NCBI RefSeq assembly: GCF_009914755.1
Contig: NC_060927.1
Reading direction: 5' to 3' (one strand)
DNA length: 64,000 nt
Source of the DNA: the human T2T-CHM13v2.0 reference genome, Homo sapiens
Each line of letters begins with the position of its first letter. The first letter of the stretch is position 1. Of the stretch, positions 1 through 54,172 are shown in pieces. A program made the translations under genes and the position numbers. The notes beneath the pieces are model-generated. The model had not been told where the DNA came from and made no database searches. It saw only the letters and a program-made list of their open reading frames with translations.

Positions 1-267
1 GACAGAAGTGCCCTTCTGGTTTTTTTAGCTTTTAAAATGTGTGACCTTTGATTCTGTGAGCATCTGCAAACCTAGAGTAAAAGATGGGAATGCAGTTTGT
101 GCAACTGGGAAGTAATTCTGAAACTTGATATGAGAAAAAAATTGTCCTTAGAGGTGATCCTGGTTTGCAGTATGCGTTGGGTGAGGTCTATCCTGGGGGC
201 GAGAAGTTAGACTCAAAGATTATCTTTGGGTTTGGAGGGAAGAAAGGCAAGCATGAATGTTTTGTCT

Positions 268-588
<321 letters not shown>

Positions 589-969
589 CTAGTAGGCTAG
601 CTAAGATTGGAAATCAGCTTCACTATGTCATATTCTTTAAAAAAATTTTTTTTTTTAGAGATGAAGTCTCACTGTGTTTCCTACTCAGGCTGACCTGGAA
701 CTCTTGGGCTCAAGTGATTCTCCCACCTCAGCCTCCCAAGTAGCTAGAACTACAGGTGTGCACCACCACACCTGGCATGCTATGTCATACTTTTTATGAA
801 ACTCCTGGTTATTTTGGTGATTAGATCAATTATTACCGTGATGAGTGTTCAAAAGAAAAGAGGCAAGACATCCCCATCAAAGCTAAATATTTGGAAGATG
901 CCAGGAAGCTAGTTCTGCAAGTTGAAAAAAAATTCTTTAAAAATTTCTCCTATTTGAGTCTTAAAAAAA

Positions 970-1428
<459 letters not shown>

Positions 1429-1464
1429 AAACCTGGATAATTTTGAAATTTTGTTGTTGTTGTT

Positions 1465-1600
1465 GGTTGTCACAACTTGTAGGTAACATCAAGTGGGTAG
1501 AGGCCAGGGATGCTGCTAAACGTCCTACGATGCACAGGACGGTGCCACAACAAAGAATTATATGGCCTCCAGTGTCACTTGTGCCACAGTTGAGAAACTG
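1465..1600. mobile_element. MER20 fragment
   Basis: gtgggtagaggccagggatgctgctaaac...gttgagaaac. Confidence 0.8.
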
Positions 1601-3115
1601 AAACTGGATATGATTTTCACAACATTAAAGTCCTTTCTGACCTTGCATGTAGTTGCCTCTTCCAAGAAGATCAAAGTATTCTCCTAAACCGGACCCTCAG
1701 AAACCCTCTGGATCCTATTTGACGCTTCCCAATCCTAGAGGCCACTTGGGGTGTTGCTGCCTGTGGCTGGATGGGTTTGGGGTCTGTCATGAGCTTCTGT
1801 GCGGCTCTCTGGTGCTGTACCAAGGAAACTGCTGATTCAGGGGAGCAGGACAGCACTCAGGAGGTGTGGGCAGAGGTTCTTACACTGCTGCAGGTTGGGA
1901 TCCTCTTCTTTTTAAGTAATATATTAACAGCAGCCTTTGCTCTTAGGCATTTTTCCAGAAGCTGTGGCTGTTTGGCTGTTGGCATTGGGTGTTTGCCTTG
2001 TGATATACCCAGAAAAGGATTCATACGTTACATATGATGAAGTCTGGGGATGGGACTGGATTCTGAGAGTATAAAGATGGCAATGCAGACCCTGCCCAGA
2101 GACTACTCAGGCATCTCAATAGGCCTGAGCAGTGGCCATGCAGGGTGGTGGAGGTATGGCAGGGCTGCCTAACTCTGCCTGTGAAGTCAGGCAAGATCCC
2201 AGCAGTGCAGAGTGAATGCTTAGTATCTGCCTGTCACTGCTTTGAACAGTTTCCTTGCATCATCCCATTTCATCCCCACACTGAGGTAGAATTCTAAGAG
2301 GTTAGGTCACTTGCTACAGTCACATGGCAAGCATGTGACCAGAGCAGAGTCACAGTGGTCAATGGCAGAGCAGAGATTTGAACCCAGGTTGTTGAGCTGC
2401 AAAACTGAACTGTCAGGAGCATTTACAGAGAGCGGCAGTGCTTTAATAGCTAAGACTTTTAGGATGGGCTGGAGCTCGCCAGGCGAGAGGGAGAATAGGC
2501 GTGCCGGGGAGAGAGGAGCAGGTGTGTCAAAGTCCCGGAGGTGTGGGAGAGCACGGCATGTCTGGGGGTTGCAGATCATTATTGGAAGGGATGGAGGGCA
2601 GGCAATAGGCAGGTGATAGAAGAAGATGACCCTTGAGAGATGGGCAGCACCAAATCCTAAGTGGCCTTCAACATCATGCTGAGAGCCACTGCCAACCACC
2701 AGTGAATTAGCAGAGAGGAAGAGAAAGCTGTGTGACATTGAGCAGCTTGCTTAATTTCTCTAGGACCCAGCTGCCCATCCAAACTAAAACCTCTAAAACT
2801 ATACTGCTCTGACGAATGTTTCTTTCATTTGTGGCCATATGAGCAGAGTGAAGGAATGCCTGCATTGACACTGGTGGGGCAGCCCTGTTGATTCATGACT
2901 TCTCCCCCTAAGGCTGTGTGATGGGTGCAGGGAGTGGTTTCTTCTCAGTCAGCAGTTGGTTTTGTTTCAGCTTTCCAGCTTATCATTTGGCATTGACCAA
3001 GTGTCTGCCAAGGGCAAGGCACAGTGTATGCTAAGTACTGTGACAGAGGCAAAGATGTGGTCAGACTTGTTTTTGAGGAGCTTGCAGCCTAGTGGAGGGT
3101 CCAGCCAGTGTTCTT

Positions 3116-3734
3116 TTTATTGTTATTATTATTATTATACTTTAAGTTCTAGGGTACATGTGCACAACGTGCAGGTTTGTTACATATGTATACATGTGCC
3201 ATGTTGGTTTGCTGCACCCGTTAACTCGTCATTTACGTTAGGTATTTCTCCTAATGCTATCCCTCCCCCATCCCCCTGCCCCACGACAGGCCCCGGTGTG
3301 TAATGTTCCCCACCCTGTGTCCAAGTGTTTTCATTGTTCAATTCCCACCTATGAGTGAGACTGTGCGGTGTTTGGTTTTCTGTCCTTGGAATAGTTTGCT
3401 CAGAATGATGGTTTCCAGCTTCATCCATGTCCCTACAAAGGACATGAACTCATCCTTTTTTATGGCTGCATAGTATTCCATGGTGTATATGTGCCACATT
3501 TTCTTAATCCAGTCTATCATTGATGGACGTTTGGGTTGGTTCCAAGTCTTTGCTATTGTGAATAGTGCTGCAATAAACATATGTGTTCATGTGTCTTTAT
3601 AGTAGCATTATTTATAATCCTTTGGGTGTATGCCCAGTAATGAGATTGCTGGGTCAAATAGTATTTCTAGTTCTCAATCCTTGAGGAATCACTGCACTGT
3701 CTTCCACAATGGTTGAACTAGTTTACAGTCCCGC
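3116..3734 (-). mobile_element. 5'-truncated L1PA (3' ~620 bp)
   Basis: ORF2 C-terminal peptide and L1 3'UTR on the minus strand; 15-bp TSD ccagccagtgttctt at 3101-3115 and 3735-3749. Confidence 0.95.
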
Positions 3735-4017
3735 CCAGCCAGTGTTCTTATCACGAGATACAAATCTCAAGTGTCTTGAGAGAGAAGTGTTCATACCAAA
3801 TACTGTGGGGCATGGAGGATGAAATAGAGATTACTGGGGGATTGAGGAAAGTCTAAGTGAAGGAGATAACTTCTAGCTCCACCAGAAAGATTTTTTAAAG
3901 GAGAACTGGGGGTAGACAGAGGACGTCTTATAGGTAGAGAGTGGAGAAAATAGAGAAAAAAACAGAAAGCCAGTGCAGGTATAGTCATGAGAAAGTCAGA
4001 TTATTAAGTGTATCTAG

Positions 4018-4536
<519 letters not shown>

Positions 4537-4885
4537 TAAACAATGGAAAGTAAAATTGCAACTCTTAAGAGAGGCAATATCTCTTGAAATCAAAGCCAGT
4601 GATGTTAAGGAACTGCTTGGATGATGTGTCAAAGCAATAATAGGATCTGGCAATGTGAGATCTGCCAACAATTGATAAAGAGAAGGGATGAACACTCCTT
4701 TAGGGGAGAGACTTGAAAATCAAACAATTGAGAGGCCCTTGAGAAATCAGTGAGGCCATAAGATATTTTTGCAAAAATGGCTTCTTTATGATAGCACAGT
4801 GATGACCAAATGTTAATTGGAAGGACTTATCATACCGTAAAAGAGTCTACACAAAATGAAGTCTTTGTTCTAAGAATTCGCACAG

Positions 4886-5175
4886 GGCTGAGCATGGTGG
4901 CTCGTGCCTGCCCACCACTTTGGGAGGGCAAAGCAGGAGGATTGCTTGAGGCCAGGGGTTCGAGAACAGCCTGGGTAACATAGAGAGACCCCATCTCTGC
5001 AAAAAATGAAAAATTAGCTGGGCGTGGTGGTGCATGCCTGTGGTCCCAGCTGCTCAGGAGGCTGAGGTGGAAGGATCACTTGGGCCCAGGAGGTCGAGGC
5101 TGCAGTGCGCCACTACAGTCTAGCCTGGGCAACAGAGCAAGACCCTGTCTCAAATTAAAAAAAAAAGCAAAAAAA
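4886..5175 (+). mobile_element. AluJ-like
   Basis: Alu consensus with A-tail. Confidence 0.88.
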
Positions 5176-5489
5176 AGCACAGAAATGTAATTGTAACCTA
5201 AATTTTGCTTGGTATTTACTATTGCTTTTAAAATAGATAGATTCGATTTTTGTTTTATTTAGATAAAGTACTAAACAAAACTGTATTTTACTTTTAACTA
5301 TGAAATTCTGAGTGTGGCTTTACCATATATCCTTTTTTCTGGTGTTTATCTTCCTGGGCTACTGAGGTCTCTGGGAAGGAGATTCTGGCTAGAAAGAAGA
5401 TGTGGATCAGTGCACAAGGACCCTGAATGCTAGACTTTGTGCTGGGAGTGAGAAGTCTTGTCCTGCCAAAGCCTGCCAGTGTTTATTAA

Positions 5490-5877
<388 letters not shown>

Positions 5878-5879
5878 TA

Positions 5880-6286
<407 letters not shown>

Positions 6287-35064: not shown

Positions 35065-35222
35065 GCCTGCAGTACTCAACTGACAATCAATTTGTACAAC
35101 GGCTCAAAGAACTGCAGGGCTCTGCCGCCGTGGAGAAGATTCCCTTGATCCCGTCTACCCCAGAAGAGATGAGTGAAATGCTTCAGCTCTGCTCCTATGT
35201 CCGCTTCAAGGTGCCCCAGCAG
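35065..35222 (+). CDS. ABHD6: ABHD6 coding exon 5: LQYSTDNQFV...FKVPQQ
   Basis: cccacag acceptor, CAG|gtaacg donor, 158 nt (cumulative 227 codons, phase 0). Confidence 0.97.
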
Positions 35223-35668: not shown

Positions 35669-36033
<365 letters not shown>

Positions 36034-36395
36034 AGGACCCCTTATCCTCTTTTTTATTTTTTAAATATACTTTAAGTTCTAGGGTGCATGTGCACAGATT
36101 GCAGGTTTCATACATAAGTATGCATGTGCCATGTTGGTTTGCTGCACCCATCAACTCACCATTCACGTTAGGTATTTCTCCTAATGCTATCCTTCCCCCA
36201 GCCCCCTACCCCCTGCCTGGTGTCCAAGTGTTCTAATTGTTCAGTTCCCACCTATGAGTGAGAACATGTGGTGTTTGGTTTTCTTTCCTTGTGATAGTTT
36301 GCTGAGAATGATGGTTTCCAGCTTCATCCATGTCCCTGTAAAGGACATGAACTCATCCTTTTTATGGCTGCGTAGTATTCCATGGTCTGTATGTG

Positions 36396-39854
<3,459 letters not shown>

Positions 39855-41705
39855 TTAGTAGATCTTCCCCCATCCCTTTATTTTGAGCCTATGTGTGTCT
39901 CTGCATGTGAGATGGGTCTCCTGAATATAGCACACTGATGGGTCTTGTCCAATTTGCCAGTCTGTGTCTTTTAATTGGGGCATTTAGCCCATTTACATTT
40001 AAGGTTAATATTGTTATGTGTGAATTTGATCCTGTCATTATGATGTTAGCTGGTTATTTTGCCCATTATTGATGCAGTTTCTTCATAGTGTCAATGATCT
40101 TTACAATTTGGCATGTTTTTGCAGTGGCTCATACCGGTTGTTCCTTTCCATGTTTAGTGCTTCCTTCAGGAGCTCTTGTAAGACAGGCCTGGTGGTGACA
40201 GAATCTCTCAGCGTTTGCTTGTCTGTAAAGGATTTTATTTCTCCCTCACTTATGAAGCTTAGTTTGGCTGGATATGAAATTCTGGGTTGAAAATTCTTTT
40301 CTTTAAGAATGTTGAATATTAGCCCGCAGTCTCTTCTGGCTTGTAGGGTTTCTGCCAAGAGATCCGCTGTTAGTCTGATGGGCTTCCCTTTGTGGGTACC
40401 TGACCTTTCTCTCTGGCTGCCCTTAACACTTTTTCCTTCATTTCAACCTTGCTGAATCTGACAATTATGTGTCTTGGGGTTGCTATTCTCGAGTAGTATC
40501 TTTATGGTGTTCTGTGTATTTCCTGAATTTGAATGTTGGCCTGCCTTGCTAGGTTGGGGAAGTTCTCCTGGATAATATCCTGAAGAGTGTTTTCCAACTT
40601 GGTTCCATTCTTCCCATCATTTCCAGGTACATCAGTCAAACATAGATTTGGTATTTTCACATAGTCCCGTATTTCTTGGAAGCTTTTTTTGTTTCTTTTT
40701 ACTTTTTTTTCTCTAACCTTGTCTTCTCACTTTATTTTATTAATTTTATCTTCAATCACGGATACCCTTTCTTTCACTTCATCAAATTGGCTATTGAAGC
40801 TTGTGCATGCATCATGAAGTTCTCGTGCCATGGTTTTCAGCTCCATCGGGTCATTTAAGGTCTTCTCTACACTGTTTATTCTAGTTAGCCATTTGTCTAA
40901 CCTTTTTTCAAGGTTTTTAGCTTCCTTATAATGGGTTCAAACATGCTCCTTTAGCACGGAGAAGTTTGTTATTACTGACCTTCTGAAGCCTACTTCTGTC
41001 AGCTCAGCAAAGTCATTTTCCATCCAGCTTTGTTCCGTTGCTGGCGAGGAGCTGCAATCATTTGGAGGAGAAGAGGCGCTCTGGTTTTTAGAATTTTCAG
41101 CTTTTCTGCTCTGGTTTCTCCCCATCTTTGTGGTTGTATCTACCTTTGGTCTTTTATGTTGGTGACCTACAGATGGGATTTTGGTGTAGATGTCCTTTTT
41201 GTTAATGTTGATGCTATTCCTTTCTGTTTGTTAGTTTTCCTTATAACAATCAGGTCCCTCAGCTGCAGGTCTGTTGGAGTTTGCTGGAGGTCCGCTCCAG
41301 ACCCTGTTTGCCTGGGTATCACCAGCGGAGTCTGCAGAACAGCAAATATTGCTGCCTGATCCTTCCTCTGGAAGCTTTGTCTCAGAGGGGCACCCGGCCG
41401 TATGAGGTGTCAATCAGCCCCTACTGGGAGGTGTCTCCCAGTTAGGCTACACGAGGGTCAGGGACCCACTTGAGGAGGCAGTCTGTCTGTCTCAGAGCTC
41501 AAATGCTGTGCTGGGAGAACAACTGCTCTCTTCAGCGCTGTCAGACAGGGACATTTAAGTCTGCAGAAATTGCCTGCTGCCTTTTGTTCAGCTAAGCCCT
41601 GCCCACACAGGTGGAGTCTAGAGGCTGCTGGCCTTGCTGAGCTGTGGTGGGCTTTGCCGAGTTCGAGCTTCCAGGCCACTTTGTTTACCTACTTAAGCCT
41701 CAGCA

Positions 41706-42050
41706 ATGGCAGACGCCCCTCCCCCAGCCAGGCTGCCGCCTTGCAGTTCAATCTCAGACTGCTGTGCTAGCAGGGAGCAAGGCTCTGTGGGCCTGGGACC
41801 CACCGAGCCAGGCACGGGAGAGAATCTTCTTGTCTGCCAGTTGCTAAGACCTTGGGAAAAGTGCAGTATTTGGGCAGGAGTGTCCCAGTTTTCCAGGTAC
41901 AGTCTGTCATGGCTTCCCTGGCTAGGAAAGGGAAATCCCCCGACCCCTTGCACTTCCCAGGTGAGGCGATGCCTGCCCTGCTTCAGCTCGCCCTCTGTGG
42001 GCTGCACCCACTGTCCAACCAGTCCCAGTGAGATGAACCAGGTACGTTAA
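41706..42050 (+). CDS. Intact L1 ORF0 homologue (114 aa) in the antisense L1 5'UTR; expression unproven
   Basis: MADAPPPARLPPCSSISDCCAS... matches the L1 ORF0 N-terminus (MAGAPPPASLPPCSLISDCCAS); gcaATGG Kozak context; open to TAA at 42048-42050. Confidence 0.75.
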   Translation: MADAPPPARLPPCSSISDCCASREQGSVGLGPTEPGTGENLLVCQLLRPWEKCSIWAGVSQFSRYSLSWLPWLGKGNPPTPCTSQVRRCLPCFSSPSVGCTHCPTSPSEMNQVR

Positions 42051-42639
42051 TTGGAAATGCAGAAATCACCCGCCTTCTGCGTTGATCACGCTGGATGCCG
42101 CAGACCGGAGCTGTTCCTATTCGGCCATCTTGGAACCTATCCTCGTTATACTCTTAAAAATTGTTGAGGAACCCAAAGGGTTTTTATTTATAGGGGTTAT
42201 ATTTATTATTAATGTTTACCATATTAGAAATTAAAACTCAGGCCGGGTGCGGTGGTTCATGCCTGTAATCCTAGCACTTTGGGAGGCCAAGATGGGAGGA
42301 TTGCTTGAGACTAGGAGTTCAAGACCAGCCTGGTCAACGTAGCGAGACCCCATCTCTATTTAAATACAAATAAAAGAAAATAAATGAAAACTCAGAAGAT
42401 TCCAAAATGCAATGAATGTACAAGCACTTATTCCAGTAGCCAAGAGCAAGGACATCATCCCACATTTTATAGGCTCTGAAAAACAGTGTACTTTTGAGAG
42501 AATGTAAGTGAAGAGGCAAGTAACATTGAGTATTAGGAAAGTAGTTTGACCTCCTAGACTCCCAAGAACCACTTTGAAAAATGCTGGACTAGATCCTGTA
42601 GGACCTTATAGGTACGGAAAGGAGCCAGGAGTTTTTCTA

Positions 42640-45491: not shown

Positions 45492-45546
45492 ATCCTGCAA
45501 GGCCTTGTCGATGTCCGCATCCCTCATAACAACTTCTACCGAAAGT
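45492..45546 (+). CDS. ABHD6: ABHD6 coding exon 6: ILQGLVDVRIPHNNFYRK
   Basis: ccttag acceptor, T|gtaagt donor, 55 nt. Confidence 0.96.
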
Positions 45547-45759: not shown

Positions 45760-45860
45760 TGTTTTTGGAAATCGTCAGTGAGAAGTCCAGATACTCTCTC
45801 CATCAGAACATGGACAAGATCAAGGTTCCGACGCAGATCATCTGGGGGAAACAAGACCAG
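45760..45860 (+). CDS. ABHD6: ABHD6 coding exon 7: LFLEIVSEK...IIWGKQDQ (catalytic Asp278 codon 45855-45857)
   Basis: aag acceptor after U-rich tract, CAG|gtatgt donor, 101 nt, WGxxD motif. Confidence 0.96.
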
Positions 45861-53995: not shown

Positions 53996-54172
53996 GTGCT
54001 GGATGTGTCTGGGGCAGACATGTTGGCCAAGTCAATTGCCAACTGCCAGGTGGAGCTTCTGGAAAACTGTGGGCACTCAGTAGTGATGGAAAGACCCAGG
54101 AAGACAGCCAAGCTCATAATCGACTTTTTAGCTTCTGTGCACAACACAGACAACAACAAGAAGCTGGACTGA
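53996..54172 (+). CDS. ABHD6: ABHD6 last coding exon: VLDVSGADML...CGHSVVMER...KKLD* (His306 codon 54074-54076)
   Basis: cagcag acceptor, 58 codons plus TGA; spliced total is 337 aa. Confidence 0.97.
   Translation: MLDVSGADMLAKSIANCQVELLENCGHSVVMERPRKTAKLIIDFLASVHNTDNNKKLD

What the first reader, a model, noticed from the sequence alone, without database searches (positions are those of the whole stretch)
41706..42050. Intact L1 ORF0 with two splice donors in frame with ABHD6 exon 6: predicted ORF0-ABHD6 fusion proteins
Seen: ORF0 is open for 114 aa with a good Kozak context although ORF1 and ORF2 are broken. Donor CAG|gtgagg after 41960 follows exactly 85 codons and donor CAG|gtacgt after 42041 follows exactly 112 codons. 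Both are phase 0, matching the phase-0 acceptor at 45492. The predicted products are 195 aa (...PCTSQ-ILQGLV...) and 222 aa (...EMNQ-ILQGLV...), soluble, with Asp278 and His306 but no TM helix or Ser148. A third donor, CAG|gtacag after 41896 (phase 2), enters a +1 frame that stays open through exons 6-7 to TAG 54081 (144 aa), so all three avoid NMD. Known: ORF0 is translated from L1 antisense-promoter transcripts and can splice to nearby exons. Whether this copy is transcribed is unknown, and a short ORF can survive by chance.
Basis: partly seen in the sequence, partly recalled or inferred. Interest (0 to 1): 0.8.

Follow-up and report, generated by a model that had tools for sequence, protein, structure and literature searches.

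The report
Decayed L1 ORF0 inside ABHD6 intron
An old, broken LINE-1 retrotransposon in an ABHD6 intron still carries an open antisense reading frame and splice donors that could in principle join the next ABHD6 exon, but the match comes from random decay of this copy and no transcript is known, so it looks ordinary.

Summary
There is a 114-aa ORF (41706-42050, +) with context gcaATGg. Its three GT donors have phases 2, 0 and 0, the ABHD6 exon at 45492 has a phase-0 acceptor, the predicted products are 144, 195 and 222 aa, and all stops lie in the last exon.

The host is a full-length, decayed L1PA6 on the minus strand (36050-42135), with ORF1 and ORF2 in pieces.

"Intact ORF0" is only half right. 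Against 29 paralogues, this copy has two private 1-bp deletions, after 41917/8 and after 41971. Only codons 1-71 follow the family frame, and the last 43 residues are a frameshifted read-through. In the family frame donor 2 is phase 1, and donor 3 lies past the stop and is weak. Its +5 G is found in 0 of 29 paralogues. So the phase-0 match to ABHD6 is a by-product of decay.

A long open ORF0 is common: 11 of 29 paralogues keep 100 aa or more.

The locus is absent from every L1-chimera data set I could search. The predicted proteins keep only ABHD6 residues 228-337.

Verdict: an ordinary L1PA ORF0 locus. The fusion is possible but unsupported.

The parts
36050..42135 (-). Full-length, decayed L1 (L1PA6 by RepeatMasker) in the ABHD6 intron between exons 35065-35222 and 45492-45546
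   Evidence: Pfam L1 ORF1, endonuclease and RT matches on the minus strand. The 5' end carries ...ccaagatggccgaataggaacagc... read on the minus strand. The 3' poly-T on the + strand starts about 36050. The 6086-bp length and the strand equal the RepeatMasker row chr3:58261370-58267456 (-), L1PA6, 6.4% divergence, in Pinson 2022 Table S1.
41706..42050 (+). ORF0-derived open frame, 114 aa, Kozak gcaATGg
   Evidence: no Pfam family
41706..41918 (+). Codons 1-71: the part still in the family's ORF0 frame, homologous to the 71-aa ORF0 of young L1
   Evidence: 48-60 of 70-71 residues identical to the 11 long-ORF paralogues, and 39-40 of 70-71 identical to 5 young copies
41919..42050 (+). Codons 72-114: frameshifted read-through tail, not the family's ORF0 sequence
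   Evidence: 6-10 of 36-43 residues identical to paralogues. Two private 1-bp deletions: an extra base after 41917/41918 in 26 of 29 copies and after 41971 in 22 of 29.
41809..41817 (+). Site of a donor-like CAG|GT of young L1 copies; here CAG|GCACGG, so not a GT donor
   Evidence: GT in 8 of 8 young copies; GC in the window and in 29 of 29 older paralogues
41894..41902 (+). Donor 1, CAG|GTACAG, phase 2. It is weak (6 of 9 consensus) and is the only one of the three inside the conserved ORF0 frame.
   Evidence: GT kept in 29 of 29 paralogues, phase 2 in 22 of 29. The homologue CAG|GTGCGT lies inside the ORF in 5 of 8 young copies.
41958..41966 (+). Donor 2, CAG|GTGAGG, strong. It is phase 0 here only because of the 1-bp deletion upstream.
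   Evidence: U1 duplex -11.6 kcal/mol, top 0.06% of 3,578 GT sites. GT kept in 28 of 29 paralogues. Phase 1 in 18 of 29 and in all 11 long-ORF copies. Past the stop in 8 of 8 young copies.
42039..42047 (+). Donor 3, CAG|GTACGT. Its phase 0 and its +5 G are both private to this copy.
   Evidence: G at +5 in 0 of 29 paralogues (23 of 29 read CAG|GTACCT). Past the stop in 10 of the 11 long-ORF copies. 8 of 9 consensus.
41535..41735 (+). Stretch that corresponds by position to L1 nt 400-600, where the classical antisense promoter lies (inferred, not tested)
   Evidence: Position counted from the L1 5' end at 42135. The promoter location comes from passages. Only two upstream ATGs (41402, 41503), both short ORFs ending before 41706. 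CpG observed/expected 0.31 over 41230-42135.
45492..45546 (+). ABHD6 coding exon with the phase-0 acceptor tttatccttag|ATC, the proposed splice target
   Evidence: hub annotation
45760..45860 (+). Next ABHD6 coding exon in the predicted fusions
53996..54172 (+). Coding part of the last ABHD6 exon. It holds the stops of all three predicted products (54081-54083 and 54170-54172).
40104..40936 (-). L1 ORF1 remnants in three separate frame pieces
   Evidence: Tnp_22_dsRBD 3.8e-38, Transposase_22 2e-22, Tnp_22_trimer 2.8e-05
38011..39854 (-). L1 ORF2 remnants (endonuclease, reverse transcriptase) in separate pieces
   Evidence: Exo_endo_phos_2 8.7e-10, RVT_1 2.4e-18 and 3.4e-4; ORF list

Best explanation
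This is the antisense 5'UTR of an ordinary, full-length, roughly 6%-diverged L1PA6 that inserted antisense into an ABHD6 intron. Its family began with a long ORF0, which still runs 110 aa in many copies, and with GT donor motifs on the antisense strand.

This copy has decayed at the usual rate. Two private 1-bp deletions moved the reading frame twice, the G+C-rich sequence happened to stay free of stops, and one private C-to-G change improved a third donor. Together these produce a 114-aa ORF whose two downstream donors fall in phase 0, the phase of the next ABHD6 exon.

Nothing indicates that this happens or that the products would be stable. Most likely the element is silent or gives only unspliced or rare noise transcripts, and has no function.

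Shown: the anatomy, the family comparison, the private changes and the absence from the searched data sets. Inferred: silence and lack of function.
For: - L1 identity and breakage. The matching RepeatMasker row is L1PA6, 6.4% divergence.
- Ordinary decay: my star-tree estimate for this copy is 5.7% over 530 bp, against a median of 5.8% over all 30 copies compared, this one included.
- Family ORF0: 26 of 29 paralogues keep the ATG, 11 of 29 keep 100 aa or more, and 8 of 29 are exactly 110 aa.
- Private deletions: 26 of 29 and 22 of 29 paralogues have an extra base at the two sites. The tail is 6-10 of 36-43 identical against 48-60 of 70-71 for the head.
- Donor phases: in the family frame they are 2, 1 and (past the stop) 2. 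The +5 G of donor 3 occurs in 0 of 29 paralogues.
- Openness is cheap here: 59% G+C, 1-5 stops per frame in all six frames, and P(43 further codons open) = 0.26 in 20,000 first-order Markov simulations.
- No sign of use. No RefSeq exon lies in the L1 (hub table).
  - ABHD6 and the hg19 coordinates are absent from Criscione 2016 (11 supplementary files, including the EST table).
  - They are absent from Pinson 2022 Table S2 of 1,677 brain and glioma chimeras, which is held whole, although the element itself is in their Table S1.
  - ABHD6 is absent from the Garza 2023 supplement and the Jonsson 2019 supplements.
  - 0 papers hold ABHD6 together with 'L1 antisense', with 'L1PA', with LINE-1 and 'chimeric transcript', or with retrotransposon, promoter and chimeric.
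- Base rates are low. 57 of about 3,200 ORF0 loci were seen fused to an exon (Criscione's account of Denli 2015). Only 44 of 1,509 L1 chimeric transcripts (2.9%) were spliced at the 5' end.
Against: - The configuration is the favourable one. The L1 is antisense to the gene, intronic and full-length with its 5' end present, and L1PA6 is within the range reported to have antisense-promoter activity (passages).
- Donor 2 pairs with U1 better than all eight annotated ABHD6 donors scored (-11.6 against -11.0 for the best of them). Donor 3 matches 8 of 9 consensus positions.
- The acceptor at 45492 is a real, constitutive one only 3.4-3.5 kb away.
- The ORF0 ATG has a strong context, and at most two short upstream ORFs precede it.
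- All predicted stops are in the last exon.
- I could not query large junction compendia, CAGE, Ribo-seq or primate orthologues, and I could not read Denli 2015 or its fusion list. The data sets searched cover ESTs, brain, glioma and neural progenitors only.
Confidence: 0.8

Rival explanations
1. The L1PA6 antisense promoter is active in some state, such as pluripotent cells, placenta, or hypomethylated tumours. It then yields low-level spliced L1-ABHD6 chimeric mRNAs through donor 2 or donor 3, translated into ORF0-ABHD6(228-337) fusion proteins.
For: - Correct orientation, strong donors, a phase-0 match, a strong Kozak context and stops in the last exon.
- Antisense-promoter activity is reported for L1PA1 to L1PA6-8, and 13.5-20.6% of such elements gave chimeras in brain and glioma.
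- ORF0-exon fusions have been detected at other loci.
Against: - The locus is absent from every data set searched, and there is no RefSeq model.
- Only 2.9% of chimeras are spliced at the 5' end.
- CpG observed/expected is 0.31 and identity to young copies is 76-78%, so promoter motifs may be eroded.
- The phase match rests on private decay, not on a conserved design.
- The product starts inside the cap region and lacks Ser148 and most of the eight-stranded core, so a stable fold is unlikely. That last step is inference.
Confidence: 0.13
2. The donors matter, if at all, inside the ordinary ABHD6 pre-mRNA, which reads through this L1 in the same direction. Paired with the acceptor-like site ...ctgccttttgttcag|C at 41591, they could define a cryptic exon (41592 to 41896, 41960 or 42041). 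That exon would carry the in-frame TAA at 41694-41696 and give a nonsense isoform.
For: - An acceptor-like polypyrimidine tract followed by CAG ends at 41591, 305-450 nt upstream of the donors.
- A TAA at 41694-41696 closes the ORF0 frame upstream of the ATG.
- The donors are strong.
Against: - No annotated ABHD6 transcript has such an exon (hub table).
- I did not score the acceptor or look for a branch point.
Confidence: 0.05

Closest known systems
L1 ORF0 loci of primate L1PA1-L1PA8 elements (Denli et al. 2015, Cell 163:583). I saw this only through other papers' passages; the paper itself is not held.
   Same: - An antisense-strand ORF in the L1 5'UTR, downstream of the antisense promoter position, with a strong ATG context.
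- An N-terminal 71 aa homologous to the young 71-aa ORF0 (39-40 of 70-71 identical).
- GT donor motifs in or behind the ORF.
- One of about 3,000-3,500 such loci.
   Different: - The ORF is 114 aa, against 70-71 aa in young copies and 110 aa in its own family, because of two private frameshifts.
- The young family's upstream donor-like site is GC here.
- The two in-phase donors lie where young copies are already past the stop.
- No evidence of transcription or translation.
L1 antisense-promoter chimeric transcripts (Criscione 2016, PMC4908685; Pinson 2022, PMC9396940)
   Same: A full-length L1PA element antisense to a host gene, with a downstream host exon in reach. The element is listed among the 9,123 L1PA1-8 elements with a 5'UTR in Pinson's Table S1.
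   Different: The locus is not among the ESTs of Criscione's Table S1 or the 1,677 chimeras of these two studies. It is therefore a candidate by sequence only.
[quoted passage not shown]
   Same: The predicted products would carry ABHD6 residues 228-337, including D278 and H306.
   Different: They lack the N-terminal transmembrane helix and S148. They also lack everything before the middle of the cap region (V220-I237), which is most of the eight-stranded core. Neither activity nor the normal fold is expected; this is inference.

Membership tests
LINE-1, full-length L1PA element | ORF1 and ORF2 (endonuclease, reverse transcriptase) homology in L1 order on one strand | tested here: met
   Pfam: Tnp_22_dsRBD 3.8e-38, Transposase_22 2e-22, Exo_endo_phos_2 8.7e-10 and RVT_1 2.4e-18, all on the minus strand in the expected order but split over frames
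LINE-1, full-length L1PA element | Complete 5'UTR shared with other genomic copies; A-rich 3' end | tested here: met
   5,512 first-look candidates in the same genome. The 39 scored non-self matches are 89-92% identical over about 340 nt. The 29 fetched copies align over the 530 nt up to the L1 5' end at 85-90% identity. Poly-T on the + strand at about 36050. RepeatMasker row: L1PA6, consensus positions 5-6154.
L1 ORF0 locus | ATG-initiated ORF on the antisense strand of the 5'UTR, homologous to the 71-aa ORF0 | tested here: met
   ATG at 41706 aligns with the ATG of 8 of 8 young copies and 26 of 29 older copies. Residues 1-71 are 39-40 of 70-71 identical to the 5 young ORF0s of 70-71 aa.
L1 ORF0 locus | Frame intact over the family's full ORF0 length | tested here: not met
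   Two private 1-bp deletions. Residues 72-114 are out of the family frame. The frame is intact only over the stretch that equals the young 71-aa ORF0.
L1 ORF0 locus | Transcribed from the L1 antisense promoter and translated | not testable with these tools
   No expression, CAGE, Ribo-seq or proteomic data are on hand.
ORF0-exon fusion / spliced L1 chimeric transcript | Donor in or behind ORF0 in phase with a downstream host acceptor | tested here: met
   Donors after 41960 and 42041 are phase 0, and so is the acceptor at 45492.
ORF0-exon fusion / spliced L1 chimeric transcript | Observed junction (EST, RNA-seq or long read) between the L1 5'UTR and the host exon | tested here: not met
   Absent by gene name and by hg19 coordinate prefix from the Criscione 2016 supplements and from Pinson 2022 Tables S1-S3 apart from the element list. 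Absent by gene name from the Garza 2023 and Jonsson 2019 supplements. Large compendia and Denli's list were not searchable here.
ABHD6 / alpha-beta hydrolase | Complete catalytic triad Ser-Asp-His on an eight-stranded core | tested here: not met
   The predicted fusions start at residue 228. S148 and the first 227 residues are missing. The fold description comes from the review read.

The most novel reading that the evidence does not exclude
Two private 1-bp deletions and one C-to-G change in this L1PA6 copy have by accident built a new alternative first exon for ABHD6. When the L1 is de-repressed, as in early embryo, placenta or hypomethylated tumours, the antisense promoter would make an mRNA for a soluble ORF0-ABHD6(228-337) protein. 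That protein would lack the membrane anchor and the nucleophile, and would be a lineage-specific product with some activity of its own, for example as a tumour-specific antigen or as a competitor for ABHD6 partners.
Probability: 0.04. Interest if true: 0.45.

Novelty: new member of a known kind. Interest (0 to 1): 0.12.

Why it matters
If the junctions were real, this would be one more entry in the list of L1 ORF0-host exon fusions. It would also be a tidy example of random decay of a dead retrotransposon creating an in-frame alternative first exon for a lipid hydrolase gene of pharmacological interest. As it stands the value is methodological. Checking an 'intact' repeat-borne ORF against its paralogues showed that half of it is a frameshifted read-through, and that the phase match is accidental. 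Several thousand L1PA elements carry the same raw material, so sequence-only predictions of this kind have a low prior.

Tried and rejected
- Denli 2015 (by DOI), Speek 2001 (PMC86790) and Matlik 2006 (PMC1559930) are not held. I therefore could not read which two sites Denli named SD1 and SD2, nor the list of 57 fusion genes. My mapping of donors onto young copies rests on 8 genomic copies.
- Pfam gives nothing for the 114-aa ORF.
I dropped it and used the ABHD6 review instead.
- I did not fold the fusion proteins. They are joined sequences that the folding tools do not take, so the claim that they would not fold is inference from the known ABHD6 structure.
- I considered selection on ORF0 in the family. 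11 of 29 long ORFs is not clearly above a rough neutral expectation, and the sample is biased towards the copies most like this one, so I make no claim.
- I considered a segmental duplicate of the locus. The best non-self match is 92% identical, so there is none.
- Primate orthologues are not available in any collection here.
- I built no consensus of the L1 family. All comparisons are copy by copy.

Full report
**Observation.**
- An ATG at 41706 (context tcagcaATGg) opens a 114-codon frame that ends at TAA 42048-42050.
- Three GT sites follow CAG: after 41896 (191 nt, phase 2), after 41960 (255 nt, 85 codons) and after 42041 (336 nt, 112 codons).
- The five ABHD6 coding exons upstream of 45492 sum to 681 nt, so that acceptor (tttatccttag|ATC) is phase 0.
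- Joining each donor to 45492-45546, 45760-45860 and 53996 onward gives 144 aa (+1 frame, TAG 54081-54083), 195 aa and 222 aa. Every stop is in the last exon. S148, D278 and H306 are at the stated positions of the 337-aa ABHD6.

**What the element is.**
- On the minus strand, Pfam finds the L1 ORF1 domains at 40104-40936, split over three frame pieces. It finds the ORF2 endonuclease at 38787-39854 and reverse transcriptase pieces at 38011-38662.
- The L1 5' end lies at about 42135 and its A-tail, poly-T on the + strand, starts at about 36050. That makes 6086 bp.
- Table S1 of Pinson et al. 2022 (PMC9396940; supplement searched) has a RepeatMasker row chr3:58261370-58267456, minus strand, L1PA6, 6.4% divergence, consensus positions 5-6154. 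It has the same length and strand and lies inside ABHD6. My recalled hg19 position of ABHD6 agrees to within about 300 bp. I take it to be this element.
- The element lies antisense to ABHD6, in the intron between exons 35065-35222 and 45492-45546. Its antisense promoter would therefore point towards exon 45492.

**Comparison with paralogues.**
- A search of the window's own genome with the 345-nt ORF gave 5,512 first-look candidates. 40 were scored, and the 39 non-self matches are 89-92% identical. I fetched the best 29 and compared each with the window, pair by pair and without building a consensus.
- 26 of 29 keep the ATG. Measured from the aligned ATG, 11 of 29 are open for 100 aa or more and 8 of 29 for exactly 110 aa. 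The other 18 are shorter or lack the ATG. A long ORF0 in a dead L1 of this family is therefore common.
- The window copy is not one of the intact ones. 26 of 29 copies have one more base after window 41917/41918, and 22 of 29 have one more after 41971. The window thus carries two private 1-bp deletions.
- Accordingly, residues 1-71 are 48-60 of 70-71 identical to the 11 long-ORF paralogues, while residues 72-114 are only 6-10 of 36-43 identical.
- The family frame survives here as a separate 40-aa ORF (41909-42031...LARKGKSPDPLHFPGEA...).

**Donors.**
- Donor 1 (GT in 29 of 29 copies, phase 2 in 22 of 29) is the only one of the three that sits in the conserved frame. It is weak: 6 of 9 consensus positions.
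- Donor 2 (GT in 28 of 29) is very strong: U1 duplex -11.6 kcal/mol, top 0.06% of the 3,578 GT sites of the window. In the family it is phase 1, in 18 of 29 copies and in all 11 long-ORF copies. Its phase 0 here comes from the first deletion.
- Donor 3 reads CAG|GTACCT in 23 of 29 copies and has G at +5 in 0 of 29. It lies past the stop in 10 of the 11 long-ORF copies. Its phase 0 here comes from both deletions together, and its better consensus match from a private substitution.

**Young copies.**
- Eight young-type copies were found with the published ORF0 primer, which has 856 exact matches in the genome.
- ORF0 is 71 aa in 4 of the 8, 70 aa in 1, and cut short (29-33 aa) in 3. The homologue of donor 1 (CAG|GTGCGT, phase 2) is inside the ORF in 5 of 8. 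The homologues of donors 2 and 3 are past the stop in 8 of 8.
- A further donor-like CAG|GT in young copies (8 of 8) is GC in the window and in 29 of 29 older copies.
- I could not read Denli 2015, so I cannot say which sites its authors call SD1 and SD2. Reviews say only that two donors lie within ORF0 (passages).

**Chance.**
- The ORF stretch is 59% G+C and has 1-5 stops per frame in all six frames.
- In 20,000 first-order Markov simulations of its composition, 114 open codons occur 2.9% of the time and 43 further codons 26% of the time.
- The relevant null is not random sequence but decay from an ancestor that was already open, and the paralogues answer that directly: 11 of 29.
- This copy's own branch length (5.7% over 530 bp) is typical of the set of 30 copies compared (median 5.8%, range 4.9-6.9%).
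- One acceptor phase matched by some of three donors is not remarkable.

**Evidence of use.**
- None was found. RefSeq has no exon in the L1 (hub table).
- ABHD6 and the hg19 coordinate prefixes of the element are absent from the 11 supplementary files of Criscione et al. 2016, which include the EST table.
- They are also absent from Table S2 of Pinson et al. 2022, which lists 1,677 chimeras from 11 brain and glioma samples and is held uncut.
- ABHD6 is absent from the one supplement held for Garza et al. 2023 and the nine for Jonsson et al. 2019.
- Four full-text searches pairing ABHD6 with L1 terms found 0 papers.
- These sources cover ESTs, brain, glioma and neural progenitors. Large junction compendia, CAGE, Ribo-seq and Denli's list were out of reach.
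- Base rates are low. 57 of about 3,200 ORF0 loci were seen fused (Criscione's account). 161 of 8,744 L1PA1-7 elements had EST-supported chimeras, and 44 of 1,509 chimeras (2.9%) were spliced at the 5' end.

- The geometry is the right one.
- L1PA6 is within the range reported to have antisense-promoter activity.
- Donor 2 pairs with U1 better than all eight annotated ABHD6 donors scored, and donor 3 matches 8 of 9 consensus positions.
- The ATG context is strong, and only two short upstream ORFs (from 41402 and 41503) precede it.

**The predicted proteins.**
- They would start at ABHD6 residue 228, inside the cap region V220-I237. They would lack S148 and the bulk of the eight-stranded alpha/beta-hydrolase core (ABHD6 review PMC9412472, passages).
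- I infer that they would neither be active nor fold like ABHD6. This was not tested, because joined sequences cannot be sent to the folding tools.
- The ORF0 part has no Pfam family.

**Verdict.**
- This is an ordinary decayed L1PA6 ORF0 locus. Its in-phase donors are a by-product of private frameshifts and one private substitution.
- An ORF0-ABHD6 fusion is mechanistically possible and belongs to a published class, but has no support here. I put about 0.13 on real spliced chimeric transcripts in some cell state, and about 0.04 on a stable product with any activity.
- Interest is low.

Noticed in passing
window 35722-36051: An Alu on the minus strand (poly-T at 35740-35755, body to about 36033) is flanked by an 18-bp direct repeat, aggaccccttatactctt / aggaccccttatcctctt. 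It sits right against the L1's A-tail end, so the Alu landed in or next to the L1's own target-site duplication. The motif ttatactctt recurs beyond the L1 5' end at about 42145-42154.
   Followed up: partly
window 41572-41592: An acceptor-like site, ctgctgccttttgttcag|C, lies on the + strand 115 nt upstream of the ORF0 ATG and in the ORF0 frame. With the downstream donors it could define a cryptic exon in the ABHD6 pre-mRNA. The in-frame TAA at 41694-41696 would make such an exon a nonsense exon.
   Followed up: no
window 42033-42035: An ATG in the ORF0 frame lies three codons before donor 3. A transcript starting in the published +200 antisense start region would miss the ORF0 ATG, yet could still encode MNQ plus ABHD6 228-337 through donor 3.
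   Followed up: no
L002-L030 (own-genome paralogues): In this older L1PA family the ORF0 frame runs 110 aa (8 of 29 copies exactly, 11 of 29 at 100 aa or more). The 70-71 aa quoted in the literature describes young L1. In young copies a stop falls at codon 72, close to where this window's copy is frameshifted.
   Followed up: partly
L031-L038 and genome-wide: The 22-nt 3' end of the young-type ORF0 (the published primer) has 856 exact matches in this genome, 428 on each strand.
   Followed up: no
window 41693-42046, minus strand: The opposite strand of the same stretch, which is the L1 sense 5'UTR, is also open for 117 codons from stop to stop. This shows how stop-poor the G+C-rich segment is.
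   Followed up: no
window 42240-42300: A sense-oriented Alu begins about 100 bp beyond the L1 5' end (ggccgggtgcggtgg...), inside the would-be intron between the L1 donors and exon 45492.
   Followed up: no
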